Source: an uncultured Actinomycetes bacterium
GTDB lineage: Bacteria; Actinomycetota; UBA4738; HRBIN12
DNA: 64,000 nucleotides
NCBI GenBank assembly: GCA_963817235.1
Contig: CAWFNS010000001.1
Location: forward strand, 8,595-72,594
Direction of reading: 5' to 3'
Below the pieces are notes generated by a model. It was not told the DNA's origin, ran no database searches, and worked only from the letters and a program-made list of their open reading frames with translations. This document shows positions 10,969 to 38,778 of this stretch, piece after piece (the first letter of the stretch is position 1; the number at the start of each line of letters is the position of its first letter). The translations under genes were made by a program, and so were the position numbers.

Positions 10969-11492
10969 GTGCGGATCGAGCAGATCAAGGACCTGATCAG
11001 GGACGTGCCGGACTTCCCCGAGCCGGGGATCGTCTTCAAGGACATCACGCCGGTCCTCGCCGACCCGATGGCGTTCTCCACGATCGTCGACCTGATCGTC
11101 GTGCACTTCGGCCGCGGGAACGTCGACAAGGTCGTCGGCATCGAGGCGCGCGGGTTCATCCTGGGCGCGACCGGTCGCGTACCACTTCGGCGCCGGGCTC
11201 GTGCCCGTCCGCAAGGCCGGGAAGCTCCCCGCCGAGACCCTCGATGAGGAGTACGCGCTCGAGTACGGCACGGCCTCCCTCGAGATCCACAAGGACGCGG
11301 TCAAGCCCGGCGAGCGGGCGCTGATCGTGGACGACGTGCTTGCCACCGGGGGGACGGCGCACGCCGCGACCTCGCTGGTCGAACGGATCGGCGGCGACCG
11401 TGTGCGGCATCGCCTGCCTGATCGAGCTCGACTTCCTGAACGGCCGCTCGAAGCTGGAGGGGCACGACCTCTTCACGCTGATCCACTACTGA
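10969..11492 (+). CDS. apt: adenine phosphoribosyltransferase (frameshifts near 11170 and 11400)
   Basis: [51 protein letters not shown]. Confidence 0.95.
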
Positions 11493-11544
11493 GCCGCCGT
11501 TCGTGACGGCCGGCGCGAGGGCCGGACGTACACTGGCTCTACCG

Positions 11545-13802
11545 ATGGACAGCAAGGAAGAGCTGCAGGTCGAACCGCCCCCGCCGCCCCGACGCGGTGG
11601 CCGGCTCCCGCTGCCGCGCCGGCGCCGGCCGGATCCCCAGGGGCTGGCGCTCGCGCCGCTCCTCAAGAAGGTCCGGAGCTACAACCCGAAGGGCGACATG
11701 CGCCTGCTGGAGCGGGCCTATCGGTTCTCCGAGGAGGCCCACGACGGCCAGTCGCGCCTGTCGGGAGCTCCGTTCATCGAGCACCCGCTCGCGGTCGCCG
11801 AGATCCTCGCCGACCTGCGGCTCGACACCACGACCCTGACCGCCGCGCTCCTGCACGACACGGTCGAGGACACCGACGTCACGCTCGAGGTGATCACCGA
11901 AGCGGTTCGGCGACGACGTCACGCGGATCGTCGACGGCCTCACGAAGCTCGACCGGCTCCAGTTCCGCACCCGCGAGCTGGCGCAGGCCGAGAACGTCCG
12001 CAAGATGATCGTGGCGATGGCCGGCGACATCCGCGTGCTGTTGATCAAGCTGGCCGACCGGCTCCACAACATGCGGACGGTCTCGGCGCTCGCGCCGGCG
12101 AAGCAGACGCGCATGGCCACCGAGACGCTCGAGATCTACGCGCCCCTGGCGAACCGGCTCGGCGTCCAGGAGGTGAAGTGGGAGCTCGAGGACCTGTCGT
12201 TCAAGACGCTCCATCCGGGCCCCTACAAGGAGATCGCGCAGCTGGTCGAGACCCGCCGCGGTGAGCGCCAGAAGCTGATCGAGGAGCTCACGTCGTCGCT
12301 GCGCCAGAAGCTGAAGGAGCTCGGCGTGAAGGCCGAGGTCGAGGGCCGCCCGAAGCACCTGTATTCGATCTACGAGAAGATGGTGATCGGCGGCAAGGAG
12401 TTCGACGAGATCCACGACCTCGTCGGCATCCGCATCCTCGTCGAGTCGACGCGGGACTGTTACGCGGCGCTCGGCGCCGTGCACGCGCTGTGGAAGCCGG
12501 TGCCCGGCCGCTTCAAGGATTACGTGGCGATGCCCAAGTCGAACATGTACCAGTCGCTGCACACCACCGCGGTCGGGCCGCAGGGCAAGCCGCTCGAGAT
12601 CCAGATCCGCACGCGCGACATGCATCGCACGGCCCAGTTCGGCATCGCGGCGCACTGGCGCTACAAGGAAGGCAAGCAGTCGAAGGACGCCGCCGACCTC
12701 GCGTGGCTGGGCCAGATGATGGATTGGCTCAAGGACATGGCCGATCCGCGGGAGTTCATGGAGGGCCTGCGGATCGACCTGTCGGGCGGCCGCGTGTTCG
12801 TGTTCACGCCGAAGGGCGACGTCACGAACCTGCCGCAGGGCGCGACACCCGTCGACTTCGCGTACACGATCCACACGGAGGTCGGGCACCGCACGATCGG
12901 CGCGAAGGTGAACGGCAAGCTCGTCCCGCTCGACTACGAGCTCCGCACCGGTGACTCGGTCGAGGTGCTGACCTCGAAGGCGCAGGGCGAGGGTCCCAGC
13001 CAGGACTGGCTGCAGTTCGTCGCCACGCCGCGCGCGCGCAACAAGATCCGGCAGTGGTTCGCCAGGGGACGGCGCGAGGATGCGCTCGATCAGGGCAAGG
13101 ACCTGCTGCAGCGGCAGATGCGCAAGCAGAACCTGCCGATCAAGCGCTTGGCGACCGAGGAGGCGCTGGAGCAGGTCGCGCAGGACCTGAAGATCCCCGA
13201 CCTCGACGCGCTCTACGTGGCGGTGGGGGAGGGGCACGTGTCGCCGCAGTCCGTGGTCGCCCGCCTCTCGCGGAACGTCTCGGGGACGGAGGGCGGGGAC
13301 GTGACCGACGTGCCGCTCGCGCGGCCGGTCCGGATCCAGCAGACCGACGTCTCGAAGGGCGTCATGGTCAAGGGATCGCCCGATGTCTGGGTCCGGCTCG
13401 GACGCTGCTGCACGCCGGTGCCGGGCGACGCGATCGTCGGGTTCGTGACCCGAGGGCCTCGGCGTCTCGGTCCACCGCGCCGACTGCCCGAACGTGAAGA
13501 CCCTCCGGCGCGAGCCCGAGCGGATGATCGACGTCTCCTGGTCCGAGGGCAAGCCGACGTCGTTCGTGGTGGCGATGCAGGTCGAGGCGCTCGACCGGAC
13601 CCGGCTGCTCTCGGACATCGCGACGGCGCTGTCGGATCAGCACGTGAACATCCTGGCGGCGAACTCCACGACCGGGCGGGACCGCCTCACGCGGCTCCGC
13701 TTCACGTTCGAGCTGGCCGACATCACGCACCTGTCGTCGATCCTGGCGGCGGTCAAGCGCGTCGAGAGCGTGTTCGACGCGTACCGCGTCGTGCCCAGCT
13801 AG
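11545..13802 (+). CDS. relA: bifunctional (p)ppGpp synthetase/hydrolase, long RSH (frameshifts near 11905 and 13455)
   Basis: HD hydrolase motifs (HPLAV, LLHDTVEDT, KLADRLHNMRT), synthetase (GRPKH, YQSLHT, EIQIRT), TGS, CC and ACT domains. Confidence 0.95.
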
Positions 13803-14249
13803 GTGCGGGTCCTCCTGCAGCGCGTCTCGCGCGCGCGGGTGAGCGTGCAGGAGCAGGTCGTCGCCGAGATCGGGCAGGGCTACCTGCTCCTGGTCGGGGT
13901 CGGCCGCGGGGATCCGGATGCGCACGTCGCGAAGCTCGCGGACAAGGTCGCCGGCCTCCGGGTCTTCCCCGACGACGAGGGGAAGGTGAACCGCTCGCTC
14001 GCGGACGTCGGCGGCGAGGCGCTCGTGGTGTCGCAGTTCACGCTGTACGGCGACGTCCGGAAGGGTCGGCGCCCGTCGTGGATCGGCGCCGAGGATCCCG
14101 AGCGCGCCGACGCGATGGTCGAGGCGTTCGCGGTCGCGCTCGAGGGTCACGGGTTCCGGGTCGGCCGGGGCCGCTTCGGCGCACACATGGAGGTGGAGCT
14201 CGTGAACGACGGCCCGTTGACGATGCTGCTCGACGCCGAGGCGATCTGA
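13803..14249 (+). CDS. dtd: D-aminoacyl-tRNA deacylase
   Basis: MRVLLQRV, LRVF, VSQFTL, KGRRPS, NDGP. Confidence 0.96.
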   Translation: MRVLLQRVSRARVSVQEQVVAEIGQGYLLLVGVGRGDPDAHVAKLADKVAGLRVFPDDEGKVNRSLADVGGEALVVSQFTLYGDVRKGRRPSWIGAEDPERADAMVEAFAVALEGHGFRVGRGRFGAHMEVELVNDGPLTMLLDAEAI

Positions 14250-14251
14250 AG

Positions 14252-14632
14252 ATGCGGCGGCGCAGGATCGCCTCGGGCTCGCCGTTCGAGCCGACGATCG
14301 GCTTCAGCCGGGCGCTCCGGGTCGGCGAGCGGGTCCTCGTCTCCGGCACGGCGCCGATCAGCGAGGACGGGTCGGTGGACCCCGACGCCGGCGCGCAGAT
14401 GCGGCGCTGCCTGCAGATCGCCCTCGCGGCGCTGGCCGAGGCCGGCGGTGGCCCCGGAGACGTCGTGCGGACCCGGACCTACCTGGTGGACCGCGCGGAC
14501 GCCGAGGCGGTCGGCGCCGTCCACGGCGAGGTCTTCGGCGCGATCCGCCCGGCCTCGACGATGATCGTCGTCGCGGGACTGCTGGACCCGCGGTGGAAGG
14601 TCGAGATCGAGCTGGAGGCCGAGCTGGGCTGA
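14252..14632 (+). CDS. RidA/YjgF-family protein
   Basis: GFSRALRVG, VSGTAP, DVVRTR, RPAST, VEIELEA. Confidence 0.85.
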   Translation: MRRRRIASGSPFEPTIGFSRALRVGERVLVSGTAPISEDGSVDPDAGAQMRRCLQIALAALAEAGGGPGDVVRTRTYLVDRADAEAVGAVHGEVFGAIRPASTMIVVAGLLDPRWKVEIELEAELG

Positions 14633-14684
14633 GGCGAACGGCCCGGGAAAGCCGCCGGAAGGCGTCCGGTAGCATGGCGCTCCC

Positions 14685-15308
14685 ATGTACCTCGACGTCT
14701 TCGACGCGAACCCCTACGGCACGAACTGCTGGCTGCTGGCCGCCGAGGACGCCGAGGAGGCGGTGGTCGTCGATCCCGGGTTCGCGCCCGCCGCCGTGCA
14801 CGCGCTCCTGGACGCCGCCGGCAAGATCCCCGTCGCCGTCCTGCTGACCCACGCGCACGTCGACCACGCCGGCACGGCGGGCACGTTCGCGGGCGACCTG
14901 CCGATCTACGTCCACCCCGACGACGCCGTGGCGTTCGACGATCCGGTCGCGTGGGGCGGACCGTCCGCCTCGTCCCTCGAGCCGGCGAAGGACGTGCGGC
15001 CGATCGCGGACGGCGAGATCCTCCGGGTCGCGGGCTTCGGCGTCGAGGTCCTGCACACCCCCGGCCACACGCCCGGCCACTGCTGTTTCCGCATCGACGA
15101 CGACGTGCTCGTGTTCTCCGGCGACCTCGTCTTCGCCGGGACGATCGGGCGTTCGGACTTCGCGAACTCCGATCCCCGGGCGATGCGCGAGAGCCTCCTG
15201 CGGTTCCTGCGGCTCCCGGACGAGCTGCGGACCCTGCCGGGGCACGGCCCGGAGACCACGGTGGGCATCGAGCGGCGATCGAACCCGTTCCTCGTGGAGC
15301 TCGGCTGA
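14685..15308 (+). CDS. metallo-beta-lactamase-fold hydrolase (glyoxalase II-like)
   Basis: THAHVDH, HTPGHTPGH, FSGD, PGHG; usual neighbour of hisS. Confidence 0.92.
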   Translation: MYLDVFDANPYGTNCWLLAAEDAEEAVVVDPGFAPAAVHALLDAAGKIPVAVLLTHAHVDHAGTAGTFAGDLPIYVHPDDAVAFDDPVAWGGPSASSLEPAKDVRPIADGEILRVAGFGVEVLHTPGHTPGHCCFRIDDDVLVFSGDLVFAGTIGRSDFANSDPRAMRESLLRFLRLPDELRTLPGHGPETTVGIERRSNPFLVELG

Positions 15309-16585
15309 TGGACCTCGCGCCGCCGCGCGGCACGCATGACCTCCTCCCGCCGGCCGGGGGGCAGATGCGCGCGCTCTACGACCGTGCGGCGGCGATCGCC
15401 CGCCTGTACGGCTACCGCTACGTCGAGACGCCCGGCTTCGAGTCCTCGGAGCTCTTCGAGCGGACCTCCGGGGCGACGAGCGACGTGGTCTCGAAGGAGA
15501 TGTACTCGTTCCGCGATCGCGGGCGATCGGCCGTTGACGCTGCGTCCGGAGGGGACGGCGCCCCTCATGCGCGCGTACCTGCACCGGATCCACGACCTCG
15601 GCTCCCCGCTCAAGGCCTACTACCTGGGCCGGATGTACCGGTACGCGCGACCGCAGGCCGGCCGCTTGCGGGAGCACCGGCAGTTCGGCGTCGAGGTCTT
15701 CGGCGAGGCCGAACCGGCCGCCGACGTCGAGGTGATCGTGCTCGGCGACCGCTTCCTCCGCGATCTGGGGCTGCGGCGCTACGAGATCCAGATCAACTCG
15801 ATCGGGGACGACACGTGCCGGCCGGCCTACCGCGAGGAGCTGGTGGCCTTCCTCGAGGCGAACCGCGACCGGCTCCGCGACGAGCACAAGGACCGGTTCC
15901 GCGAGAACCCCCTGCGGGTCCTCGACTGCAAGGACGAGGCGTGCCGGGCGGTCGCGGCCGAGGCGCCGCGCATCATCGACCGGCTCTGCGAACCGTGCCG
16001 CGAGCACTTCGCGCAGGTGCTCGCGGGGCTGGAGGAGGCGGGGCTGAAGCCGGTCGTGACGCCGACCCTCGTGCGCGGCCTCGACTACTACACGCGCACC
16101 GCCTTCGAGTTCGTGAGCGACGCGCTCGCGGAGGGCGCCTCCGCGCAGCAGTCGACGCTGTTCGGCGGCGGCCGCTACGACGGGCTGGCCGAGGCGCTCG
16201 GCGGACCGCGCGTGCCGGGCATCGGGTTCGGCATGGGCCTGGAGCGCGTCGCGCTCGCGATCCGCGACGAGGGGCTCTCGGCGCCGGAGGAGCCCGGCCT
16301 GCGGGCGTTCGTCGTGACGATCGGTGAGCCCGCGCGCGAGCTCGGCCGCCGGCTCGTCGGCGACCTGCGTGCCGCCGGGGTGTCGGCGCGGAGATGCCGT
16401 TCGCCGAGCGGCCGTTGAAGGCGCAGCTGAAGATGGCCGACCGCGCCGGGGCGGCGTACGCGGCGATCATCGGCGAGCGCGAGGCCGCGGACGGCACCGT
16501 GACGCTGAAGCGGCTCGACGACGGAGAACAGGACACGGTGCCGATCGGCGAGGCGGGCGCACGCTTGCGGGAGGGCGCGGCATGA
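15308..16585 (+). CDS. hisS: histidine--tRNA ligase (frameshifts near 15530 and 16390)
   Basis: PRGTHD, KEMY, LRPEGTA, RPQAGR.REHRQFG, VRGLDYYTRT, GGGRYDGL. Confidence 0.95.
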
Positions 16586-27018: not shown

Positions 27019-28710
27019 ATGACGACGGTCAAGCGGAAGTCGAAACAGCTCGGCCAGATCCTCATCGAGCTCGGGTACATCACGCCCGAGCAACTCGAGT
27101 CTGCGCTCGAAGAACACCGCAAGACGCCGAAGTCGCTCGGCCGCGTGCTGATCGACCTGGGGATGATCAAGGAGTCGGATCTGGTCCGCGCGCTCGCGGA
27201 GCAGGTCGGGCTCGAGTTCGTCGATCTGAGCGAGTTCCCGGTCGACGCGACCGCGACCGTGCTCCTGCCGGAATCGCTCGCCCGCCGGTACCGCGCGCTG
27301 CCGATCGGCGAACGCGACGGCCGTCTCCTGGTGGCGATGTCGGATCCCGCGAACGTCTACGCGCTGGACGACATCCGCACGATCACCGGCCGCGACGTCC
27401 AGCCGGTGGTGGCGACCGCGAACGACGTCGAACACGCGATCCAGAAGTTCGCCGGCCTCGACTCGCAGGTCGAGGCGATGGCCGACATCCTCGCCGAAGT
27501 CGGGCGACACCGAGAGCACGGAGGATCTCGAGGCGGCGCTCGAGGACGCGCCGATCGTGAAGCTCGTGAACGCGATCATGACGCAGGCGGTCGGCGACCG
27601 CGCCTCGGACGTGCACCTCGAGCCGGCGGAGCGGAACGTGCGTATCCGGTTCCGCGTCGACGGCGTCCTGCACGAGCCGATGCCGCCGGCGCCGAAGAAC
27701 ATCCAGGGCGGCCTCATCAGCCGCTTGAAGGTCATGGCCGACATGAACATCGCCGAGAAGCGCGTGCCCCAGGACGGCCGGATCTCGATGAAGGTCGGCG
27801 GAACCGCGCTGGACCTGCGTGTCGCGACGCTGCCGACCGTCTACGGCGAGAAGGTCGTGATCCGCGTGTTGGACAAGTCGAACGCGCTGCTGCGGCTGGA
27901 GGACCTCGGCTTCCTCGAAGACTCGTACAAGCGGTTCTCGGTGTCCTTCAAGAAGCCGTACGGGGCGATCCTCGTCACCGGGCCGACCGGGTCGGGGAAG
28001 TCGACCACGATGTATTCGACGCTCAACATCCTGAACGAGGAGTCGAAGAACATCATCACCGTCGAGGACCCGGTCGAGTACCGGCTGGCCGGCGTCAACC
28101 AGGTCCAGGTCAACCCGAAGGCCGGGCTCACGTTCGCCTCGGCGCTCCGCTCGATCCTGCGCGCCGACCCCGACATCGTGCTGATCGGTGAGATCCGGGA
28201 CAAGGAGACGGCCACGATCGCGATCGAGGCCGCCCTCACCGGCCACCTCGTGCTGTCCTCGCTGCACACGAACGACGCCGCCTCGGCCATCACGCGCCTG
28301 GTCGAGATGGACGTCGAGACGTTCCTGGTGGCCTCCGCGATCGACGCGGTGGTCGCGCAACGGCTCGCGCGCATGCTGTGTGAGCGCTGCAAGCAAGGCT
28401 ACGCAGCCGGAGCAGGCCGAGCTCCAGGCGGCCGGCTACCCCGAATGGCTGTGGAACGAGGTGCCCGCAGCTGTGGAAGTCGCAGGGGTGCCCGGCCTGC
28501 TCGAACACCGGCTACCGGGGCCGGATCGGCCTCTACGAGGTGATGCAGATGAGCGAAGAGATCGAACGGCTCACGGTGGAGCGTTCCTCTGCCGATGCAG
28601 TCAGAGAGGTCGCCATCCAGCAGGGCATGATGACGCTCCGCGAGGACGGCCTCGAGAAGGCACGGATGGGGATCACATCATTGGACGAGGTCGCAAGGGT
28701 GGTGAAGTGA
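27019..28710 (+). CDS. pilB: type IV pilus assembly ATPase with MshEN-like N-terminus (about 3 frameshifts)
   Basis: ASDVHLEP, RVPQDGR, GPTGSGKSTT, EDPVEY, LRADPD..LIGEIRD, CxxC...CxxC Zn motif, GYRGRIG. Confidence 0.94.
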
Positions 28711-28712
28711 GG

Positions 28713-29942
<1,230 letters not shown>

Positions 29943-29956
29943 GGGGGTGAACGGGG

Positions 29957-31163
29957 ATGGCTGAAACCTACGCCTACAAGGTCCGCGACAAGGGCGGCCA
30001 CGTCGTCACGGGCACGCTCGTGGCGGACAACGAGGCCCTCGTCCTGCAGCGCCTCCGCGAGCAGGGCTACACGCCGCTCGAGGTCGGCCGGCAGAAGCGC
30101 GGGATGAACATCGAGCTGACCAAGAAGAAGGTCAAGCTCAAGGAGATCGCCGTCTTCTCGCGGCAGTTCGCGACGATGGTCAACTCCGGCCTGCCGATCC
30201 TGCGGGCCCTCGCGATCCTGTCCGAGCAGACCGAGAACAAGGAGCTCGCCCGGGTCCTCACGGTCGTTCGGGCCAGCGTCGAGCAGGGGTCGTCGCTGTC
30301 CGCCGCCCTCGCGAAGCACCCGAAGATCTTCAACGACCTCTACGTCTCGATGGTGAAGTCCGGTGAGACCGGCGGCTCGCTCGACAGCGTCCTGCTCCGG
30401 CTCGCCGACATGATCGAGACCGAGGTCAAGCTGCGCGGCAAGATCAAGGCGGCCATGACGTATCCGGTCGCGGTCGTCGCGCTGGTCAGCTTGATCCTGA
30501 CCGCGATGCTCCTGTTCGTGGTGCCGCAGTTCAAGAACATCTACGCCGGGCTCGGCGGCAGCCTGCCGCTGCCGACGCGGATGCTGATCGGCGTGTCCGA
30601 CATCTTCAAGAACTTCTGGTACATCGTGCTGATCGGGCTGATCGTCGGCCGGTTCATGTTCCGGCGCTGGCGCAAGACGCCCGCCGGCCGCGAGGCGGTC
30701 GACGGCATGAAGCTGCGCGTGCCGATCTTCGGACAGCTGTTCCACAAGAGCGCGCTCGCCCGGTTCGCCTCGACCCTGTCGATGCTGCTGCGCTCGGGCG
30801 TGCCGATCCTCCAGTCGCTCGACATCGTGAGCGACACCGTGAACAACAAGGTCATCTCGAAGGCGATCACGGACGTGCAGGCGAGCGTCCGCGACGGTGA
30901 GTCGATGGCGAAGCCGCTCGCGCGCTACCGGGTCTTCCCGCCGATGGTCGTGCAGATGCTCGCGGTCGGGTGAGGAGACCGGCCAGGTCGACGTGATGCT
31001 CGAGAAGGTGGCCACGTTCTACAACGACGAGGTCGAGGCCTCCGTGGACTCCCTGACCTCCTTGATCGAACCGCTCTTGATCGCGGTCATCGGTGGCGCC
31101 GTGGGCGCCGCGGTGGTCGCCCTCTACATGCCGATGTTCAACATCATCAAGCTGATCCAGTAG
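29957..31163 (+). CDS. pilC: type IV pilus platform protein, GspF family (frameshift near 30970)
   Basis: FSRQFATMVNSGLP, GETGGSLD, VGEETG, EPLLI, LYMPMF. Confidence 0.94.
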
Positions 31164-31187
31164 GGCTACGGTCAGGTGGGGTCTTCG

Positions 31188-31216
31188 GGGCCCGGGGCGT
31201 CACGCGCCCCGGGCCC
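31188..31216 (+). terminator. GC-rich hairpin after pilC (12-bp stem, 5-nt loop)
   Basis: GGGCCCGGGGCG / CGCCCCGGGCCC perfect inverted repeat; no long U tract. Confidence 0.6.
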
Positions 31217-31296
31217 TTCCCACGTCCGCCCTGCGGCGGAACGCGTCCGCCCTCATCGCCACCTTCCGCCTTCTCCCCTCTTCTTCCTCGGGGGAG

Positions 31297-31323
31297 CTAC
31301 AGGTGGGGGCACCTTCGACCGAA
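31297..31323 (+). promoter_or_regulatory. WhiG/FliA-type promoter CTACAG-N15-ACCGAA
   Basis: same geometry as the 25837 and 33919 motifs with mismatches, upstream of the major pilin. Confidence 0.5.
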
Positions 31324-31383
31324 ACCTCCTTGGAACGCGCACCACGGGGGTGCGCCAAGCTCCAGGAAAGGAGGCGAAGGCAG

Positions 31384-31875
31384 ATGCTCAAGGGACTCAT
31401 GAAGCGCGTCCATGAGGACGAAGGCTTCACCCTCATCGAGCTGATGGTGGTCGTTCTGATCATCGGCATCCTGATCGCCATCGCTCTGCCGACGTTCCTC
31501 GGCGCCCGGACGCGTGCGCAGAACCGTGCCGCGCAGTCGGATCTTCGCAACACGCTCGTTGCTGCGAAGACCATCTACACGGACGCCAGTTCGTACACCT
31601 GTGCCACGGGCGCGGCCGCGGTCGCTCCGTGCACGCAGAACCTGCAGAGCGTCGAGCCGTCGCTGAACTACGTGGCCGGCGCCGCAGGCAGCGTCACCAC
31701 GCAGGTGGGCGTCTCGGTGGTCTCCGCCACGCAGTGGGCGGCGGGTCGCTGGTCCGCATCGAACAACTGCTTCTACATCTCCGATGACTCGGCGGTGGGC
31801 ACGAAGTACGGCCAGGCCGCAGGCGCCTGCGTCGCGCCGACCATGGCGCTCGCAGCCGCGGCGAGCTGGAGCTAG
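31384..31875 (+). CDS. pilA: major type IV pilin 1
   Basis: class III signal EDEG|FTLIELMVVVLIIGIL with Glu5; strong AAGGAGG RBS; 4 Cys. Confidence 0.9.
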   Translation: MLKGLMKRVHEDEGFTLIELMVVVLIIGILIAIALPTFLGARTRAQNRAAQSDLRNTLVAAKTIYTDASSYTCATGAAAVAPCTQNLQSVEPSLNYVAGAAGSVTTQVGVSVVSATQWAAGRWSASNNCFYISDDSAVGTKYGQAAGACVAPTMALAAAASWS

Positions 31876-31887
31876 ACGGCGAACGCC

Positions 31888-31948
31888 CGGCTCCTTCGGG
31901 GGCCGTGGTTCACCGAGAACGAGGGGGCGGCCTTCGGGCCGCCCCTTC
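31888..31948 (+). terminator. two tandem cUUCGg hairpins between the pilin genes
   Basis: CGGCTCC-TTCG-GGGGCCG (31888-31905) and GAGGGGGCGGCC-TTCG-GGCCGCCCCTTC (31921-31948). Confidence 0.7.
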
Positions 31949-32000
31949 GCTCATCAGGCTCCGATCACCGAGCGAGGCGATGGAAGGAGGCGATGGCAGC

Positions 32001-32486
32001 ATGCTCACGGCGTTCCGGAAGCGCGTCCGGCAGGACGACGGCTTCACCCTGATCGAGCTGATGGTCGTCGTCCTGATCATCGGCATCCTCATGGCGATCG
32101 CGCTGCCGACGTTCCTCGGCGCCCGGACCCGGGCGCAGGACCGGGCGGCGCAGTCGGACCTGCGGCACGCCCTCGTCGCCGCGAAGATCCTCTTCGCGGA
32201 CGGCAGCTCCTACGCGTGCGCGACGGCTCCTCCGGCCACGGCTCCGTGCGTCCAGAACCTGAAGGACGTCGAGTCGTCCCTGACGTACCAGGCGGCCGCG
32301 GTCGGGAGCACGCCGAACCGCGTCGGCGTGGCGGTCCTGTCGACGACGCAGTGGGCCGCCGCCCGCTGGTCGACGTCGAACACCTGCTTCTACATCTCCG
32401 ACGACTCGGCGGCCGGCACCCGCTACGGGCAGGCCGCCGGCGCCTGTGCCGTTCCCGCCGCCCAGGTGGCTTCCAGCTGGTCGTAG
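32001..32486 (+). CDS. pilA: type IV pilin 2, paralog of the upstream pilin
   Basis: QDDG|FTLIELMVVVLIIG; aligns end to end with pilin 1, including all 4 Cys; AAGGAGG RBS. Confidence 0.88.
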   Translation: MLTAFRKRVRQDDGFTLIELMVVVLIIGILMAIALPTFLGARTRAQDRAAQSDLRHALVAAKILFADGSSYACATAPPATAPCVQNLKDVESSLTYQAAAVGSTPNRVGVAVLSTTQWAAARWSTSNTCFYISDDSAAGTRYGQAAGACAVPAAQVASSWS

Positions 32487-32502
32487 CGCCCGGCCGCCAT
32501 CC

Positions 32503-33825
32503 CTAGAGCGGCCACCGAGGGAGCAGCCGGAGCCCGTCCGCCCACGTGCGCGGGATCCACACCCCGGTCCACACCGGCGCGTACGCCAGCCCGACGACGA
32601 TGGTCGCGGCCGCGAACGCCATCCCCACGCCGCGGCTCCATCCTCCCGGCAGCCGACGGAGCGTGGCCGCCAGGCACAGGCACATGAACGGGACGGCGGG
32701 CAGCATGTAGAAGATGAACTGACTCCGGGAGACGAGGAGCCAGGGCAGGAACATCGCCGCGTACCCGCCGAACGCCACCGCCTCCTGCCAGCGAGGGCGC
32801 CGGAGCGCCGTGAACGCCGCGACCGGCAGCGACAGCAGGAACCCCCACCAGAGCACCGGGTTGCCGAGCGCGACGATCTTGCTGACCGACGTGCCCCGGG
32901 TCTCGGCGAAGTACTGGATCGGATGCAGCAGCAGCGGCCAGGTCCACGGGCGCGAGTTCTCCGGCTGCACCTTCAGGTGGTGCTCCTGGTACTGGAGCAT
33001 CCGGATCTGCAACGTCACGAAGTCGTGCACGGCGAACCCGTGCTGGGAGAAGAAGGCGCCGTAGCTGACGAGGTAGACCAGCAGCGGCACGACCGCCAGC
33101 GACAGCACGATCGTCGCGACCTCTCGCGCGCGCGACCGATCCCGGGGTCCGTCGCGCCGGAGGCTCCACACGGCGCACAGCAGCACCGCCAGCGCCAGCG
33201 CGTAGAAGCCCGACCACTTCGTCGCGATCGCCGCCCCGAAGGCGACGCCCGCCCACAGGCGCCACGGTGAGCCGAAGGCCCGCGTGGTCCGGGGCCACCG
33301 CGTCGCGGCGGCCCGACCGAGCCGCTCGCGGTCCAGGACGAGGAACAGGAACCCGGCGATGATGAAGGTCGACAGGAAGATGTCGAGCATCGCCAGCCGG
33401 CTCTGGACGATGTGCAGGCCGTCGAACGCGAGCAGGACCGCCGCGAAGGCCGCCCACCCAGGGGATCCCCACAGGCGCAGGGCCAGCAGGTAGAGCAGGG
33501 CGACGCCCGCGATCCCGAACAGCGCCGAGGGGAGCCGCCAGCCGAACGCGTGCAGGCCGAGCGGCCCCACCCCCAACAGCGCGATGATCCATTTCCCCAT
33601 CGGCGGGTGGATCCACGTCCCCTCGTCGTCGATCTTGACCGGCGGCGGGTTGCCGACCGGCTGGCCGAACCCGCCATGCAGGTAGACCTCCGCGTCGAAC
33701 ACGTAGTACTGCTCGTCCCAGTACAGGCTCGGCGGGGACGGCAGCGACCACAGCCGCAGGACGGCCGCCGCCAGCAGGATCAGGCACGGGAGGGCGAGCC
33801 GCCGCCAGCCTCGGTCCTCGCCCAT
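32503..33825 (-). CDS. pmt: PMT-type (GT39, GT-C fold) lipid-linked-sugar protein O-glycosyltransferase
   Basis: YWDEQYY, HPPMGKW, GWR, DGLHIVQSRLAMLDIF, ATKWSG, S.PW.WP, GNP.LWW, QFIFY.LP; many TM helices. Confidence 0.85.
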   Translation of the reverse strand: MGEDRGWRRLALPCLILLAAAVLRLWSLPSPPSLYWDEQYYVFDAEVYLHGGFGQPVGNPPPVKIDDEGTWIHPPMGKWIIALLGVGPLGLHAFGWRLPSALFGIAGVALLYLLALRLWGSPGWAAFAAVLLAFDGLHIVQSRLAMLDIFLSTFIIAGFLFLVLDRERLGRAAATRWPRTTRAFGSPWRLWAGVAFGAAIATKWSGFYALALAVLLCAVWSLRRDGPRDRSRAREVATIVLSLAVVPLLVYLVSYGAFFSQHGFAVHDFVTLQIRMLQYQEHHLKVQPENSRPWTWPLLLHPIQYFAETRGTSVSKIVALGNPVLWWGFLLSLPVAAFTALRRPRWQEAVAFGGYAAMFLPWLLVSRSQFIFYMLPAVPFMCLCLAATLRRLPGGWSRGVGMAFAAATIVVGLAYAPVWTGVWIPRTWADGLRLLPRWPL

Positions 33826-33918
33826 GGCGACATCCTGGCATGGGCGCCCGCGCCGCCTCGGAGGTCTCGCGTCCCTCGGACGCGGTCCGGCGGCCCGTCG
33901 CAGGACCTCGGTCGACCC

Positions 33919-33945
33919 CTCAAGGGGACCCCCCGGCCTGCCGAC
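33919..33945 (+). promoter_or_regulatory. WhiG/FliA-type promoter CTCAAG-N15-GCCGAC
   Basis: near-identical to the 25837 motif, ahead of the minor pilin operon. Confidence 0.7.
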
Positions 33946-33978
33946 CACTAAGTGACGGACAGTGACAGGCGGGCCCAG

Positions 33979-35337
33979 ATGACGCGCGTACTCCAACAGC
34001 TGCGTTCCGCCTCGCGCCGCTCGGGCGACGAGGCGGGCTTCACGATGGTCGAGATGATGATGGCCATCTTCATCTTCGGCCTCGTCATCACGGGCCTCGC
34101 GGTCGGCATGGCGAGCTCGCTGAACCTGACCCGCCAGAACCGGAACCGGTCGATCGCCGCGAACCTGGCGTCCCAGCAGATGGACACGGTCCGGAGCATG
34201 GACTTCGACGACCTCAACAACGTCACGCAGCAGGCGCAGCCGACCACCTCGAGCACGAGCGTCGACGGCGTCCCCTACACGCTTCTCGCAGTACACGCGG
34301 TGGGTCTACAAGAGCGAGACCGGCGCGACCCCGGGGCCGTGCCAGGCGCCGCCCAGCACCGCGAACCCGCTCGCGTACATCTCCGTCGTGACCTCGGTCA
34401 GCTGGAACGACATGCGCGGCGTGCCGCCGGTGACGTCGAGCACGGTCGTGACGCCGCCGGTCGGGATCTACGACCAGACCGACGGACACATCGCGGCGAC
34501 GGTCCTGACCCGCGACGGTGCGCCGGCCCCCGGCGTCACGGTGTCGATCGCGTCGACCGGGGTCTCCGACGCCGCCATCACCTCGAGCGACGGCTGCGCG
34601 TTCTTCGCGTTCGAGCCGATCGGGACCTACGTGGTCACCCTGTCCGGGCGCGGGCATGGTCGACGGGCAGGGGCAACGCGGCGCCGCCCCAGACGGTCAC
34701 CGTGAAGGCCGGCTCGACGAGCACCGTCCAGTTCCAGTACGACTCCGCCTCCTCGCTCGTCCTCACGCTGCAGGGGAACGGGGGCTTCTCCGTGCCGAAC
34801 GCGGTGCCGATCTCGCTCGGCAACACGCACCTGCTGCCGCTCGGCGTGATGCCGGCCACCGGCTCCGGGAACCCGCGGACGATCACCGGCCTGTTCCCGT
34901 ACGCGGACGGCTACCAGACCTGGGCGGGCGCCTGTTCCGACGCCGATCCGCAGGGCGTGAGCCCTCTGGGCAGCGCCTACTACCCGGGCGCGACCCGCTC
35001 CGCCGCGATCGTCATGACGCCGGGCCAGAGCAGCACCGGCACCGTGCAGCTGCCGGCCCTCCAGGTCACGGTCAAGAAGAGCGGCGTCTTGAAGTCGGGC
35101 TACGCGGTGACGGCGACGCACGTCGTGCCTTCGGGCGCGACGAGCGACCCGGGGTGTCCGACCGCGGAGGCGTACACGCTCGGCACGAGCAACGGGAGCG
35201 GCCTGGTCTCGATGGCGCTGCCCTACGGCACGTGGAAGATCACGGCGACGAGCGGCGCGAGCACCGGCAACGCGAACGTGACCCTCAGCCCGCTGAACGC
35301 GAACAACCCGGCCGCACTCACGGTGAACGTCTCGTGA
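33979..35337 (+). CDS. minor pilin (PilV-like) with C-terminal Ig/carboxypeptidase-regulatory-like beta domains (frameshifts near 34280 and 34645-34675)
   Basis: DEAG|FTMVEMMMAIFIFG class III signal; downstream G.P.PGVTV and T...GCAFF...GTY.V beta-sandwich-like motifs; start could be GTG 33952. Confidence 0.75.
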   Translation: MTRVLQQLRSASRRSGDEAGFTMVEMMMAIFIFGLVITGLAVGMASSLNLTRQNRNRSIAANLASQQMDTVRSMDFDDLNNVTQQAQPTTSSTSVDGVPYTLLAVHAVGLQERDRRDPGAVPGAAQHREPARVHLRRDLGQLERHARRAAGDVEHGRDAAGRDLRPDRRTHRGDGPDPRRCAGPRRHGVDRVDRGLRRRHHLERRLRVLRVRADRDLRGHPVRARAWSTGRGNAAPPQTVTVKAGSTSTVQFQYDSASSLVLTLQGNGGFSVPNAVPISLGNTHLLPLGVMPATGSGNPRTITGLFPYADGYQTWAGACSDADPQGVSPLGSAYYPGATRSAAIVMTPGQSSTGTVQLPALQVTVKKSGVLKSGYAVTATHVVPSGATSDPGCPTAEAYTLGTSNGSGLVSMALPYGTWKITATSGASTGNANVTLSPLNANNPAALTVNVS

Positions 35338-36170
35338 AGCGCCTCGCGCAGCTCTTGCATCGGGCCGACGCCCAGGACGGCGTCACGCTCGTCGAGCTCG
35401 TGGTCGTCATCTCGATCATGTCGGTGGTGCTCACGTTCGTCACCAAGACGTTCATCGTCATGGAGAACGCCTCGGCCGGCGAGAACCTCCGCCTGCAGAA
35501 CCTCGACGAGGCGCGGACGCTGATGGACGACGTGTCGAAGGACGTCCGCACGGCGGCCCGGATGACGCCGACGACCTCGCCCTTCGACGTGACGGCCTGC
35601 ACGGCGACGTCGCCGGCACAGACGCAGCCGTGCGCGCCCACCGGATGGGTCAACGGGAACGCGGCGCCGTACACCGCGAACCAGGAGATGTGGTTCTACG
35701 CGAACCTCACGCTGACCGAGAACGCCACGGCGACCGCGTGCCCCGACATCATCCACCTGTTCGTCGACACGTCCCAGACCCCGCCGATCCTTCGCGAGCA
35801 GGTGATCTCCGACGCGAACCCCGCGACCGACGCGCCACCGAACTGCGTGTACGGCACGCTCTCCGGCGGGGTCTACAGCGGCACGTACGCGACCCGGATC
35901 GTCGGCAAGTACATCGCGAACGCGACCACGAACTGCCCGTCGAGCAGCCAGGTCTTCACGTACTGGTACGACGACGCGAACGGGGTCCCGACCGCGTTCC
36001 TGGCCACGGACACGCCGCTGGATGCCGGTGAGCGGATCCAGGTGAACGCGGTCGGCATCGCGTTCTCGGTGCGCCAGCAGACGAACTACACGGTGCCCTG
36101 CACGACGCTCGTCAACCGCGTCCGGCTGGCGAACGTCGAATACAACCCGATCCCGAGCCCGAGCCCATGA
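35334..36170 (+). CDS. minor pilin (PilW-like)
   Basis: AQDG|VTLVELVVVISIM with Glu5; DVSKDVRTA helix; GTGA overlap with the previous gene. Confidence 0.8.
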   Translation: MKRLAQLLHRADAQDGVTLVELVVVISIMSVVLTFVTKTFIVMENASAGENLRLQNLDEARTLMDDVSKDVRTAARMTPTTSPFDVTACTATSPAQTQPCAPTGWVNGNAAPYTANQEMWFYANLTLTENATATACPDIIHLFVDTSQTPPILREQVISDANPATDAPPNCVYGTLSGGVYSGTYATRIVGKYIANATTNCPSSSQVFTYWYDDANGVPTAFLATDTPLDAGERIQVNAVGIAFSVRQQTNYTVPCTTLVNRVRLANVEYNPIPSPSP

Positions 36171-37953
36171 CCGCGCCATCCCTGCACCGGCTGCACCGGC
36201 GACTTCGCGCCGACGGCGAGGAGGGCGTCGCCCTCATCACGGTGCTGCTCGTCACGTTCGTGCTGCTGATCCTCGTGGCCAGCACGATGGCCTACGCGAT
36301 CGGCTCGATGCCGATCTCGCGCCGCGACCAGGACTGGAACGCGGCGCTCACGGCGGCCGAAGCCGGCCTGGACGACTACCTGTACCGCCTGAACCAGAAC
36401 GACCAGTACTACCTCTACGGACAGCACCCGCCGCCCGCCACGGGCACCTGCGGCGCCTACCCGACGCTGGCGGCGCCGCCCGGACGGCAACCCCGCCTTC
36501 ATCGAGCTGGGTGCCGGTCCCCGGCTCCTCGACGGGCGCCACGTTCCGCTACAGCGTGGACACGTCCTGCCTGGTGACCCAGGGCGCGATCGTCGTGTGG
36601 GCGACCGGGAAGTCCGGGACCTCGACGCGGACCGTCCAGGCCACGTTCCGCCGGCGCTCGTTCATCGACTACCTGTACTTCACCGACTACGAGACGACCG
36701 ATCCCGCGGCCTATCCGGTGGGGTCCTTCAACTCGAACAACTCGGCCTGGGCCCAGGCCAACTGCGCGCAGCACTGGTACGAGGGCCGGCCCGGCGGGCC
36801 CCCCTACGACAACAGCCACTGCGTCGACATCAACTTCTCCTCGGGCGACGTGATCAACGGCCCGTTGCACTCGAACGACGCGATCCTCGTCTGCGGGAAC
36901 CCCACGTTCAACGGCAACGTGACCACGAGCTGGCAGGGAGCCGGGACGCCCGTGAAGCGGTACCGCACGAACTCCGGCTGCTCGAACAACAACCCGACGT
37001 TCGCCCGGGCGGGGGACCCGAAGTACGCCGACCCGCTCACGATGCCGCCGAGCAACCTGTCGATGAAGTCGAGCGCGGACGCGACCCTGGCCGGCGCCGG
37101 CTGCCTGTTCACCGGGCCGACCTCGATCACGCTGAACTCGACCGGCACGATGACGGTCGTGAGCCCGTTCACGAAGTGGCCGGCGGCCCCGAACAACTGC
37201 CAGCCGGGCACGAACATCCCGCTCCCGTCCAACGGCGTGATCTACGTCCAGAACGTCCCGGCCTCCTCGAGCGATCCGAACTACACCGCGAGCTGCATCA
37301 CCTCCACGCAGCTCGGCGGGACCGCGACGGTCCAGCACCCGCTCGGGTACCCGCAGAAGTACGACATCTCGCAGTACGGGTGCATGAACGGCGACGTCTT
37401 CCTGAAGGGCACGCTGAAGGGACGGCTGTCGATCGCGGCCGACAACAACATCGACATCATCGGCAACGTGACGTACCAGGGCGGCACGGGCGGCAGCGAC
37501 CTGCTCGGCCTGGTGGCGAACAACTACGTCGAGATCTACCACCCGGTCGGCGACTGTGGCTCCGGGAGCGCACCGTGCGACAACGGGAGCAAGAACAACG
37601 GGTACTACAACCTCGACGACGTCGCCGGCGGCCTGACGACCTCCTTCAACAACCCCACGATCCAGGCGGCGATGCTGTCGGTGAGCCACTCGTTCCGGGT
37701 GCAGAACTACCAGTACGGAGACGACACGCCGCTCGGGACGATCACCGCCTACGGCGCGATCGCGCAGAAGTACCGCGGCACGGTCGGCACGAGCGGGTCG
37801 TCCGGGTACACGAAGAGCTACTCCTACGACCAGCGCATGAAGTACCAGTCGCCGCCGTACTTCCTGAACCCCGTCGCGGCGGCGTGGCAGATCGTCACGT
37901 GGATCGAGTGCAAGGGATCGAGCTCCGGCAGCGTCCCCACGACGTGCCAGTGA
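36167..37953 (+). CDS. large PilX/GspK-like minor pilin (frameshift near 36480-36505)
   Basis: EEG|VALITVLLV lacking Glu5, A..AAEAGL motif of the PilX N-terminus; ~590 aa with a Cys/Gly/Asn/Thr-rich C-terminal region. Confidence 0.8.
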
Positions 37954-38001: not shown

Positions 38002-38778
38002 GTGGAGACCGCCTTCCGAGCGTTCGTCGCCGCCCTGTTCGGCTTCGCGTTCGGCAGCTTCCTGACCGTCGTCGTCGACCGCGTCCCGAACAAGGAGTCG
38101 ATCGTCCGGCCCCGGTCCCGGTGCCCGGGCTGCGGCACGCCGATCGCGCCGCGCGACAACATCCCGGTCCTGTCGTACCTGCTCCTGCGGGGCCGGTGCC
38201 GGACGTGCGGGATGCGGATCCCGGTGCGATACCCGTTGCTGGAGCTCGCCACCGCGGCCGCGTTCGCCGGCACCGCCGCGGTCTGGACCTCGCCCTACCT
38301 CATCGTGCTCCTGTGCGCGTTCTGCGCGGTGATGCTGGCCGTGGCCGCGATCGACCTCGAGCGACGGATCATCCCGAACCGGATCACGTACCCGTCGTTC
38401 GTCGCGTTCGCCGCCCTGATCGCGCTCGGCTGGGCGCTCGGCCAGGAGCTGAACCCGGCAGGCGCGGCGATCGGCGCGCTCGCCTACGGCGGCTTCTTCC
38501 TCGTGATCGCGCTGATCGCTCCCGGCGGCATGGGCATGGGGGACGTGAAGCTGACCGGCCTGATCGGGCTCGTGCTCGGCGCGCTCGGCCTTCGGTACGT
38601 GGCGGTCGCCGCCGGCATCGCGATCCTCCTCGGCGGGATCGCGGGCCTCGGCGCGCTGGCCGCCGGACGCGGCCGCAAGGGTGCGATCCCGTTCGGCCCG
38701 TCCCTCGCGGCCGGCGCGATCGCGGCGGTGCTGGTGGGGGAGCGGCTCGCCTCGTGGTACCTGGGCTCCGTCACCTGA
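38002..38778 (+). CDS. pilD: prepilin peptidase/N-methyltransferase (A24)
   Basis: FGSFL.VV..R, RSRCPGC, DNIPVLSYLLLRGRCRTC, IDL..RIIPN, GMGDVKL, IPFGP. Confidence 0.95.
   Translation: METAFRAFVAALFGFAFGSFLTVVVDRVPNKESIVRPRSRCPGCGTPIAPRDNIPVLSYLLLRGRCRTCGMRIPVRYPLLELATAAAFAGTAAVWTSPYLIVLLCAFCAVMLAVAAIDLERRIIPNRITYPSFVAFAALIALGWALGQELNPAGAAIGALAYGGFFLVIALIAPGGMGMGDVKLTGLIGLVLGALGLRYVAVAAGIAILLGGIAGLGALAAGRGRKGAIPFGPSLAAGAIAAVLVGERLASWYLGSVT

What the first reader, a model, noticed from the sequence alone, without database searches (positions are those of the whole stretch)
32503..33825. PMT-type glycosyltransferase embedded antisense between major and minor pilins: dedicated pilin O-glycosylation?
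A GT39/PMT with the catalytic DE motif intact converges on the pilin genes and diverges from the minor-pilin operon. Known actinobacterial Pmt enzymes (e.g. Rv1002c, SCO3154) are general protein O-mannosyltransferases not tied to pili. Pilin-adjacent GT-C enzymes in Pseudomonas (TfpO, TfpW) glycosylate pilin and block pilus-specific phages. The pilins here are Ser/Thr-rich. This may be an undescribed polyprenol-phosphate-sugar-dependent pilin glycosylation and phage-evasion module.
Basis: partly seen in the sequence, partly recalled or inferred. Interest (0 to 1): 0.75.

Follow-up and report, generated by a model that had tools for sequence, protein, structure and literature searches.

The report
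Pilin-linked second PMT glycosyltransferase
An uncultured soil actinobacterium carries, besides its ordinary protein O-mannosyltransferase, a second shorter copy wedged against its type IV pilin genes; it always travels with one pilin type that has extra Ser/Thr sites, so it is probably a pilin-dedicated glycosylating enzyme of a family not known to do this.

Summary
Window 32503-33825 (-) encodes an intact 440-aa GT39/PMT enzyme. It has PMT and PMT_4TMC domains, the DE motif and a Pmt1/2/4-like fold. It converges on pilA2, with 16 nt between the stop codons, and diverges from the minor-pilin operon.

It is not the housekeeping pmt. A 501-aa paralog, 32% identical, sits elsewhere in the genome in the canonical pmt...metG-tatD-rpfB-ksgA neighbourhood.

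Every ortholog at 55% identity or more whose flanks are readable (about 15 distinct loci, four different local gene orders) abuts a major-type pilin gene. These orthologs form one well-supported clade, separate from the housekeeping Pmt. The sister clade is not pilin-linked.

About 17 contiguous pil loci of the same genus lack the gene. Carrier genomes are scattered on a species-proxy tree.

Pilins next to the PMT form one clade and share two Ser/Thr positions absent from 36 PMT-less pilins. One is an added C-terminal Ser/Thr after the otherwise terminal Trp. The other is Ser55 in the alpha-beta loop.

Best reading (about 0.6): a pilin-dedicated, polyprenyl-phosphate-sugar-dependent O-glycosyltransferase. 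It is analogous to TfpO/TfpM/TfpW but from a different enzyme family.

The correlation reflects essentially one evolutionary origin. No biochemistry exists, and phage evasion is untested.

The parts
32503..33825 (-). Pilin-linked short PMT (GT39) gene, 440 aa (P0001)
   Evidence: Translation. Pfam PMT + PMT_4TMC. AF2 pLDDT 81, pTM 0.87. Foldseek top hits are Pmt4 and Pmt1-Pmt2, TMq 0.77-0.79.
33712..33717 (-). Codons for D37-E38, the catalytic DE motif in the first external loop, just before helix 38-48
   Evidence: D37/E38 are conserved in at least 93% of 80 PMT homologs. The corresponding residue D74 is essential in M. tuberculosis PMT (PMC12331936).
31384..31875 (+). pilA1, major-type type IV pilin (163 aa prepilin) ending ...AASWS
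   Evidence: N_methyl motif; sequence.
32001..32486 (+). pilA2, major-type type IV pilin (161 aa prepilin) ending ...SSWS. Its stop lies 16 nt from the PMT stop.
   Evidence: AF2 model has a pilin-type fold, pLDDT 85.
32481..32483 (+). Codon of the C-terminal Ser of PilA2, a candidate acceptor. The equivalent PilA1 codon is 31870-31872.
   Evidence: All 15 alignable pilins of the W-[S/T] group end W-S or W-T. None of 36 pilins from PMT-less loci does; most end in Trp.
32205..32207 (+). Codon of Ser55 (mature numbering) of PilA2 at the start of the alpha-beta loop, a second candidate acceptor. The equivalent PilA1 codon is 31588-31590.
   Evidence: Ser in all 15 W-[S/T] pilins and in both pilins of the L077 locus. 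PMT-less pilins have no Ser/Thr there (Asp in 24 and Glu in 7 of 36). The position lies just after helix alpha1 in the model.
33826..33951 (.). Divergent intergenic region between the PMT and the minor-pilin operon
   Evidence: No sigma-70-type promoter match in this interval.
33952..37953 (+). Three minor-pilin genes (33952-35337, 35334-36170, 36167-37953), with apparent frameshifts
   Evidence: N_methyl motifs, frame plot, 1-nt insertions versus G004.
27019..31163 (+). pilB (MshEN + T2SSE), pilT and pilC (T2SSF), upstream of the pilins
   Evidence: Frameshifts at about 27500, 28403, 28467 and 30971 relative to G004.
38002..38778 (+). pilD prepilin peptidase
   Evidence: A24_N_bact + Peptidase_A24.

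Best explanation
The gene encodes a catalytically competent GT39 protein O-glycosyltransferase that is a dedicated accessory enzyme of the type IV pilus. After the prepilin is inserted in the membrane (N-in, globular domain outside), the enzyme would transfer a hexose, most likely mannose from polyprenyl-phosphate-mannose, onto Ser/Thr of the major pilin(s) encoded next to it. This happens at the outer face of the membrane. The best candidate acceptors are the added C-terminal Ser/Thr after the normally terminal Trp, and Ser55 at the start of the alpha-beta loop. Enzyme and cognate pilin allele are inherited, lost or exchanged together as a cassette in the variable part of the pil locus. The housekeeping Pmt elsewhere in the genome handles general secreted proteins. 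Shown here: gene, fold, conserved catalytic residues, paralogy, conserved adjacency, and co-occurrence with a pilin type. Inferred: the substrate, the site, the sugar, and any benefit such as masking of the pilus surface.
For: Enzyme identity and competence:
- PMT + PMT_4TMC domains and a Pmt-like fold.
- D37, E38, D148 and R367-x2-F370 are conserved across 80 PMTs. They match, by motif, the essential D74, D176 and R441-x2-Y444 of M. tuberculosis PMT (PMC12331936).
- P293-x2-W296-x8-Y305 matches the acceptor-binding P-x2-W-x8-Y motif of that enzyme.

Second copy:
- A housekeeping paralog lies at C2:83928-85433 and is 32% identical.
- It aligns end to end with the NCBIfam Pmt model and lies near metG-tatD-rpfB-like-ksgA.

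Linkage:
- All orthologs at 55% identity or more with readable flanks abut a major-type pilin: L052-56, L058-60, L077-79, L125, L127-129, L137, L197.
- The adjacency holds across four local arrangements.
- In the tree, a 97% SH-aLRT clade of 26 rows holds all 11 pilin-adjacent PMTs and none of the non-adjacent ones.
- Of about 75 more distant PMT loci, only one has a pilin within 4 kb.

Presence/absence:
- About 17 contiguous pil loci of the same genus run pilin -> minor pilin with no PMT.
- Carriers fall in two separate supported subclades of a housekeeping-Pmt species proxy.

Pilin covariation:
- Pilins of PMT loci form one clade at 95% support.
- They uniquely carry a C-terminal S/T and Ser55.

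Donor and precedent:
- A Dpm1/Ppm1-like polyprenyl-phosphate hexose synthase lies next to an lnt-like ORF in the genome.
- TfpO and TfpM glycosylate the C-terminal Ser/Thr of pilins, and their genes sit next to pilA (PMC9829042).
Against: - There are no protein, glycan or expression data.
- The PMT clade and the pilin clade each have about one origin. The co-occurrence is therefore one or two evolutionary events, and the independent-pairs test had only 2 pairs.
- Conserved synteny within a genus-level lineage can be plain vertical inheritance.
- The basal pil-linked lineage (L077/78) has pilins ending S-F-P rather than W-S/T, so the C-terminal-residue idea does not hold throughout.
- The sister clade of short PMTs is not pilin-adjacent (relA-dtd slot). 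The short PMT therefore had some other or broader role before it moved.
- The gene is on the opposite strand to all pil genes, so it is not co-transcribed with them.
Confidence: 0.6

Rival explanations
1. It is a second general or other-substrate protein O-mannosyltransferase, for example for a set of envelope proteins. It merely landed in the recombination-prone variable segment of the pil locus and is inherited there by descent. The pilin features are then lineage markers, not acceptor sites.
For: The PMT clade and the pilin clade each have a single origin. The sister short PMTs sit in a housekeeping relA-dtd-MBL-hisS slot only about 18 kb upstream of the pil locus in this chromosomal region, so a local relocation is plausible. 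The gene is transcribed from the opposite strand.
Against: Adjacency to a major-type pilin survives four different local gene orders and divergence down to 55% identity. The PMT is lost or gained together with the pilin type on the species proxy tree. No member of the clade was found away from a pilin.
Confidence: 0.22
2. The enzyme glycosylates the minor pilins or tip proteins encoded by the divergently transcribed operon, rather than the major pilin.
For: In most loci the PMT shares a 126-nt divergent intergenic region with the minor-pilin operon. The minor pilins are large and Ser/Thr/Asn-rich.
Against: In L077/78 the PMT lies between the pilins and pilD with no minor-pilin operon beside it. 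In L128 the divergent neighbour is a major-type pilin. G001 has the same minor-pilin type but no PMT. The constant neighbour is the major pilin.
Confidence: 0.1
3. The protein is a GT-C enzyme acting on a lipid or polysaccharide acceptor (ArnT-like), or a non-catalytic pilin chaperone, and not a protein glycosyltransferase.
For: Weak NCBIfam similarity to ArnT (3e-05). The GT-C fold is shared with ArnT and AglB.
Against: The best sequence and fold matches are PMTs by a wide margin. The PMT_4TMC module and the peptide-binding P-x2-W-x8-Y motif are retained. The catalytic residues are invariant in the clade.
Confidence: 0.05

Closest known systems
Actinobacterial housekeeping Pmt (M. tuberculosis Rv1002c, S. 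coelicolor SCO3154; GT39)
   Same: Same Pfam domains, the same GT-C/PMT fold, the same catalytic DE, second Asp and R-x2-aromatic motifs, and a WW-like acceptor motif. The donor is presumably polyprenyl-phosphate-mannose made by a Ppm1-like synthase present in the genome.
   Different: Only 32% identical to this genome's own housekeeping Pmt. About 60 aa shorter: it lacks insertions in EL1 and EL4 and a loop of about 30 aa before the last helix. It scores 118 bits against the NCBIfam equivalog cut-off of 800. It forms a separate clade and is located in the pilin locus instead of the pmt...metG-tatD-rpfB-ksgA neighbourhood.
TfpW of Pseudomonas aeruginosa group IV pilin strains (GT-C arabinosyltransferase encoded beside pilA)
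   Same: A GT-C superfamily membrane enzyme encoded next to the major pilin gene. It uses a polyprenyl-phosphate monosaccharide donor, modifies pilin Ser/Thr (alpha-beta loop) at the outer face of the membrane, and is present only with a particular pilin allele.
   Different: Different GT family and sugar (D-arabinofuranose oligomers). Diderm host. Homology to TfpW beyond the GT-C fold was not tested here.
TfpO/PilO and TfpM pilin-specific O-oligosaccharyltransferases (Pseudomonas, Acinetobacter, Moraxellaceae)
   Same: Pilin-dedicated enzyme genes lying directly beside pilA. They coexist with a separate general glycosylation enzyme. The cognate pilins are marked by a C-terminal Ser/Thr that is the acceptor (PMC9829042).
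   Different: Those are Wzy_C-type OTases that transfer preassembled undecaprenyl-pyrophosphate-linked glycans en bloc. This protein has no such domain and belongs to GT39, which transfers single sugars from polyprenyl-monophosphate donors.
Substrate-specific eukaryotic O-mannosyltransferases (TMTC1-4, TMEM260)
   Same: GT-C/PMT-clan enzymes devoted to a narrow class of acceptor proteins, alongside the general POMT/PMT system.
   Different: Eukaryotic ER enzymes with TPR domains. There is no genomic linkage to the substrate, and they are only distantly related.

Membership tests
GT39 / PMT protein O-mannosyltransferases | Pfam PMT (PF02366) N-terminal domain plus PMT_4TMC (PF16192), both above gathering score | tested here: met
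   87.3 bits (cut-off 22.7) and 70.3 bits (cut-off 32.4).
GT39 / PMT protein O-mannosyltransferases | Acidic DE motif in the first external loop, upstream of helix HH1 | tested here: met
   D37-E38 lie directly before model helix 38-48. They are conserved in at least 93% of 80 homologs.
GT39 / PMT protein O-mannosyltransferases | Second essential Asp (EL2) and R-x2-Y/F (EL5), as in MtPMT D176 and R441/Y444 | tested here: met
   D148 and R367-x2-F370 are conserved family-wide. The mapping to MtPMT residues is by motif, not by direct alignment with the MtPMT sequence (PMC12331936).
GT39 / PMT protein O-mannosyltransferases | GT-C fold matching solved PMT structures | tested here: met
   Foldseek: 9i5k_A (Pmt4) at E 8.6e-13, TMq 0.77; 6p25 (Pmt1-Pmt2) at TMq 0.78-0.79.
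GT39 / PMT protein O-mannosyltransferases | Transfers mannose from polyprenyl-phosphate-mannose to protein Ser/Thr | not testable with these tools
   Only the presence of a Dpm1/Ppm1-like synthase beside an lnt-like ORF could be shown.
Orthologous housekeeping actinobacterial Pmt (NCBIfam NF058602 equivalog) | Score at or above the equivalog cut-off, full-length match, and the conserved pmt...metG-tatD-rpfB-ksgA neighbourhood | tested here: not met
   117.9 bits against a cut-off of 800, and the match comes in two stretches. The C2 paralog matches end to end (also below cut-off, 137 bits) and holds that neighbourhood. The two proteins fall in separate clades.
Pilin-specific O-OTases TfpO/TfpM | Wzy_C / O-antigen-ligase-type domain | tested here: not met
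   Only PMT-family domains were found.
Pilin-specific O-OTases TfpO/TfpM | Gene adjacent to pilA, and a cognate pilin with a C-terminal Ser/Thr | tested here: met
   Adjacent in all loci of the clade. The proximal pilin ends W-S/T in 13 of 14 distinct loci. This is a functional analogy only.
TfpW-type pilin GT-C glycosyltransferase | Sequence homology to TfpW / arabinosyltransferase family | not tested
EmbB appears only as a weak fold match (E 1e-2).

The most novel reading that the evidence does not exclude
This would be the first substrate-dedicated bacterial GT39 enzyme: a pilin-specific O-mannosyltransferase of monoderm type IV pili. It moves as a cassette with its cognate pilin allele and marks it at a C-terminal Ser/Thr and/or alpha-beta-loop Ser55. 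That would be a convergent reinvention, with a different enzyme family, of the TfpO/TfpM/TfpW pilin-glycosylation logic of proteobacteria. It would also provide a natural one-enzyme, one-substrate pair for studying PMT acceptor recognition.
Probability: 0.5. Interest if true: 0.72.

Novelty: new variant of a known kind. Interest (0 to 1): 0.6.

Why it matters
Bacterial PMTs are regarded as general enzymes that act on many Sec-exported proteins, and how they choose acceptors is still poorly understood. A PMT paralog genetically tied to one substrate would give a defined enzyme-acceptor pair for that question.

It would also extend pilin-specific glycosylation to Actinomycetota and to the GT39 family. 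That modification is so far known from Wzy_C-type OTases and TfpW in proteobacteria, and from AglB in archaea.

Finally, it would show that allele-linked pilin-modification cassettes, which affect phage and predator recognition in Pseudomonas, also occur in abundant uncultured soil actinobacteria. More than 100 protein clusters of this clade are present in public metagenomes.

Tried and rejected
- **Promoter/terminator scan.** The scan of 31100-34100 gave one intragenic sigma-70-like match and no terminator. It says nothing about regulation.
- **Independent-pairs test.** The test of PMT presence against a pilin C-terminal S/T yielded only 2 independent pairs, so no significance can be claimed.
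- **Metagenome scan.** The metagenome-contig scan returned few close relatives. Only about 8 of 80 loci belonged to the clade.
- **PMT remnant in the relA-dtd slot.** A tblastn search of the window's relA-dtd-MBL slot found none. The gap holds a RidA-like small ORF.
- **NCBIfam on the Ppm1 candidate.** It gave only below-cut-off matches to polyprenyl-phosphate hexose transferases, so 'Ppm1' is a family-level call.
- **Taxonomy.** Nothing below 'Actinomycetota/Actinomycetes bacterium' could be obtained from the record titles.
- **Literature.** Searches found no report of a PMT/GT39 enzyme acting on type IV pilins. The library lacks most subscription journals, so this is not proof of absence.
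- **'The pilins are unusually Ser/Thr-rich'.** Rejected as evidence: 17.6-18.7% here against a mean of 17.2% in PMT-less loci.
- **Frameshifts as pseudogenisation.** I considered that the frameshifts in pilB, pilC and the minor pilins meant a decaying locus. I judged them assembly errors. They are single-base insertions relative to the 98%-identical G004 locus, whose genes are intact. The MAG has only 13 contigs yet scores only 76% complete.

Full report
**1. What is at the coordinates**

The window is high-GC DNA (about 71%). It comes from a 2.99-Mb, 13-contig MAG rated 76% complete.

The minus-strand ORF 32503-33825 translates to a 440-aa protein, P0001.
- Third-position GC is uniformly about 0.95 in this frame across the whole gene.
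- The gene has no indel relative to a 98%-identical ortholog in a sister genome.
- Pfam finds PMT (1.5e-24) followed by PMT_4TMC (2e-19).
- NCBIfam's best hit is the protein O-mannosyltransferase model, but at 118 bits against an equivalog cut-off of 800.

The flanking genes were confirmed by Pfam:
- pilB (MshEN + T2SSE), pilT and pilC (T2SSF);
- two major-type pilins, 31384-31875 and 32001-32486;
- then the PMT on the opposite strand;
- three minor-pilin genes from 33952;
- pilD at 38002-38778.

The pilA2 and PMT stop codons are 16 nt apart. The PMT start and the first minor-pilin start are 126 nt apart.

**2. The enzyme looks catalytically intact**

An AlphaFold2 model built on 23 clade members has mean pLDDT 81 and pTM 0.87. 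Its best PDB matches are fungal Pmt4 and the yeast Pmt1-Pmt2 complex (TMq 0.77-0.79). AglB, ArnT and DPY19 follow far behind.

In an alignment of 80 diverse PMT homologs, these residues are conserved in at least 93% of sequences: D37, E38, R97, R143, D148, K203, W296, R367, F370 and Y373.

A 2025 mutagenesis study of M. tuberculosis PMT found D74 (DE motif, EL1), D176 (EL2) and R441/Y444 (R-x2-Y, EL5) essential. It also found the P359-x2-W362-x8-Y371 'WW-like' acceptor-binding motif in EL4 essential (PMC12331936).

P0001 has the matching motifs:
- D37-E38 immediately before the first loop helix;
- D148;
- R367-x2-F370;
- P293-x2-W296-x8-Y305.

The residue-to-residue mapping is by motif and family-wide conservation, not by direct alignment to the M. 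tuberculosis sequence.

A donor pathway is plausible. A Dpm1/Ppm1-like polyprenyl-phosphate hexose synthase lies beside an lnt-like ORF at C1:133709-136390. From my own knowledge, this is the arrangement known from mycobacteria.

**3. It is a second copy, not the housekeeping pmt**

Whole-genome searches with both Pfam models find exactly two full PMT genes. The other is at C2:83928-85433 and encodes 501 aa.
- It is 32% identical to P0001.
- It aligns end to end with the NCBIfam Pmt model.
- It lies a few genes from metG, tatD, an rpfB-like DUF348-G5-DPBB gene, and ksgA.

By my own knowledge of the M. tuberculosis map, that is the order Rv1002c(pmt)...Rv1007c-Rv1010. The C2 gene is therefore the ortholog of the general Pmt.

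P0001 is about 60 aa shorter. It lacks insertions in EL1 and EL4 and a loop of about 30 residues before the last helix.

**4. Linkage survey**

Among 60 related genomes:
- nearly all have the housekeeping type, at 33-40% identity to P0001;
- only G004 (98%), G012 (84%) and G035 (63%) of 36 same-genus genomes have a close ortholog;
- in all of these the ortholog lies within about 2 kb of pilC.

Scans of species-representative genomes, metagenome contigs and the protein collection added more orthologs at 55-98% identity. These come from soil MAGs labelled only 'Actinomycetota bacterium'.

Every ortholog with readable flanks abuts a major-type pilin: L052-56, L058-60, L077-79, L125, L127-129, L137 and L197.

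The adjacency persists through four gene orders:
- the window's order;
- pilA-pilA / PMT / pilD-pilM, with no minor-pilin operon (L077/78, 55% identity);
- a major-type pilin divergent from the PMT (L128);
- a locus with an extra pilin and a different minor-pilin set on the other side (L060).

At 52% identity and below the link disappears. L075, L076, L130 and G038 lie elsewhere, several in a relA-dtd-[PMT]-MBL-hisS slot. Of about 75 more distant PMT loci with flanks, only one has any pilin-like gene within 4 kb.

**5. Phylogeny**

In a maximum-likelihood tree of 80 PMTs:
- the 11 rows flagged pilin-adjacent fall in one clade of 26 rows (SH-aLRT 97);
- that clade contains no row flagged non-adjacent; its other 15 rows lack usable flanks or had none examined;
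- its sister is the non-pil 'short PMT' clade;
- the two together (support 99) are separate from the clade holding this order's housekeeping Pmts (support 99) and from the Streptomyces-type Pmts.

In the window itself the relA-dtd-MBL-hisS slot (about 11400-16418) holds no PMT or remnant. The slot lies about 18 kb upstream of the pil-linked copy. A local relocation of a pre-existing short paralog into the pilin locus is therefore a plausible origin. This is inference.

**6. Presence/absence polymorphism**

In about 17 same-genus assemblies where pilC, the pilin and the first minor pilin are contiguous, the pilin is followed directly by the minor pilin, with no PMT.

A tree of the housekeeping Pmt, used as a species proxy, places the carriers in two places:
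- G000, G004 and G012 fall in one supported subclade;
- G035 falls in another;
- each is surrounded by non-carriers.

The cassette has therefore been gained, lost or exchanged more than once. This rests on a single marker and on incomplete MAGs.

**7.

I compared 61 distinct major-type pilins.

Pilins from loci without the PMT (38 sequences, two of them frameshifted):
- none ends in Ser or Thr;
- about 30 end in Trp, and several of the rest in Phe.

Pilins from loci with the PMT:
- the PMT-proximal pilin ends W-S or W-T in 13 of 14 distinct loci, after correcting two frameshifted genes and one partial gene;
- the exception is the basal L077/78 lineage, which ends S-F-P;
- where a second, PMT-distal pilin paralog exists (L054-56), it ends ...AGW.

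A column-by-column comparison found only two non-helical positions where Ser/Thr is fixed in the PMT-associated pilins and absent in the others:
- the extra C-terminal residue: 15/15 against 0/36;
- Ser55 in mature numbering, motif [AN]-S-[STV]-Y: 15/15, plus both L077 pilins, against no Ser/Thr (Asp in 24 and Glu in 7) in the 36 others.

An AF2 model of mature PilA2 (pLDDT 85) shows helix alpha1 (residues 3-50), a loop and a beta-sheet, which I read as the classic type IVa pilin fold.
- Ser55 sits at the start of the alpha-beta loop.
- Residues 133-147 form a lower-confidence flexible tail.

From my own knowledge and PMC9829042, these are the two regions glycosylated in known pilins. The alpha-beta loop is modified in Neisseria PilE and in P. 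aeruginosa group IV pilin. The C-terminal Ser/Thr is modified by TfpO and TfpM.

Caveat: in a pilin tree, all pilins from PMT loci except one extra pilin in L060 form one clade (support 95). The association therefore reflects about one origin, and the independent-pairs test had no power.

**8. Interpretation**

The most economical reading is a pilin-dedicated O-glycosyltransferase cassette: a cognate pilin allele plus a short PMT. The housekeeping Pmt serves the general secretome. This parallels Acinetobacter and Pseudomonas, which carry one pilin-specific enzyme and one general one.

The rivals are listed with odds in the structured fields:
- a hitch-hiking general enzyme;
- a minor-pilin-specific enzyme;
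- a non-protein acceptor.

The phage-evasion idea remains pure analogy. Nothing here bears on it.

Literature searches found no report of a GT39/PMT enzyme acting on type IV pilins or encoded in a pil locus. A 2026 preprint on WhiG-controlled pili in Actinomycetota does not mention glycosylation.

**9. Verdict**

The comparative evidence, including the new pilin-site covariation, favours a dedicated role. It amounts to one evolutionary event, however, and there is no biochemistry.

- Novelty: a new variant of a known kind. Pilin-adjacent accessory glycosyltransferases are known; a GT39 enzyme in this role, in a monoderm, is not.
- Interest: 0.6.

Noticed in passing
window 27500, 28403, 28467 (pilB); 30971 (pilC); 34281, 34645 (minor pilin 1); 36482, 36502 (minor pilin 3): There are single-base insertions relative to the 98%-identical G004 locus, where these genes are intact (pilB 562 aa, pilC 401 aa). 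They break the reading frames in the window. Together with 13 contigs but only 76% completeness, this points to long-read assembly indel errors rather than pseudogenes. The PMT has none.
   Followed up: partly
window 11400-16418; L040 (G038), L075, L130: The sister clade of non-pil 'short PMTs' sits in a conserved relA-dtd-[PMT, opposite strand]-MBL hydrolase-hisS slot in other families of the order. In the window that slot (14250-14672) holds a RidA-like small ORF and no PMT remnant. The pil-linked copy lies about 18 kb downstream in the same chromosomal region. The function of the relA-linked short PMT is unknown.
   Followed up: partly
G000 C1:133709-136390 (outside the window): A Dpm1/Ppm1-like polyprenyl-phosphate hexose synthase lies directly after an lnt-like (apolipoprotein N-acyltransferase) N-terminal membrane region in one long open frame with garbled middle. 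It resembles the fused or adjacent Lnt-Ppm1 arrangement of mycobacteria. The middle is probably frameshifted by assembly errors.
   Followed up: partly
L054 3927-4418, L055 2431-2910, L056 about 12030-12516: Some PMT-bearing loci carry a second, divergent pilin paralog upstream (GFTLIELMVVVMI[IL]AILIVMGLP..., 44-46% identical to PilA2). It lacks Ser55 and ends ...AAGW. It may be an unmodified alternative pilin within the same locus.
   Followed up: no
L085 (G001), L119 (G054) versus L080-L105: At least two unrelated sets of minor pilins occur in the genus. One has a first minor pilin GFT[MI]VE..NLTRxNRNR of about 415-432 aa. The other has GFTLVEAMVSITILAVGAF.. of about 480-490 aa. The first type occurs both with the PMT (window) and without it (G001). 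The segment from pilin to minor pilins behaves as a variable island.
   Followed up: no
L076 3749-8419: One non-pil short PMT (P0113, 52% identical) lies directly after two tandem sulfatase-family (PF00884) genes. This hints that short PMTs may be tied to other specific envelope proteins.
   Followed up: no
L087, L089, L092, L097, L099, L103 (second pilC loci in G002, G005, G008, G021, G022, G030): Several genus members have a second type IV filament locus with short pilins of a different type (GFTLIELMIVIVILG.., ending in Cys-containing tails). It was not seen in the window.
   Followed up: no
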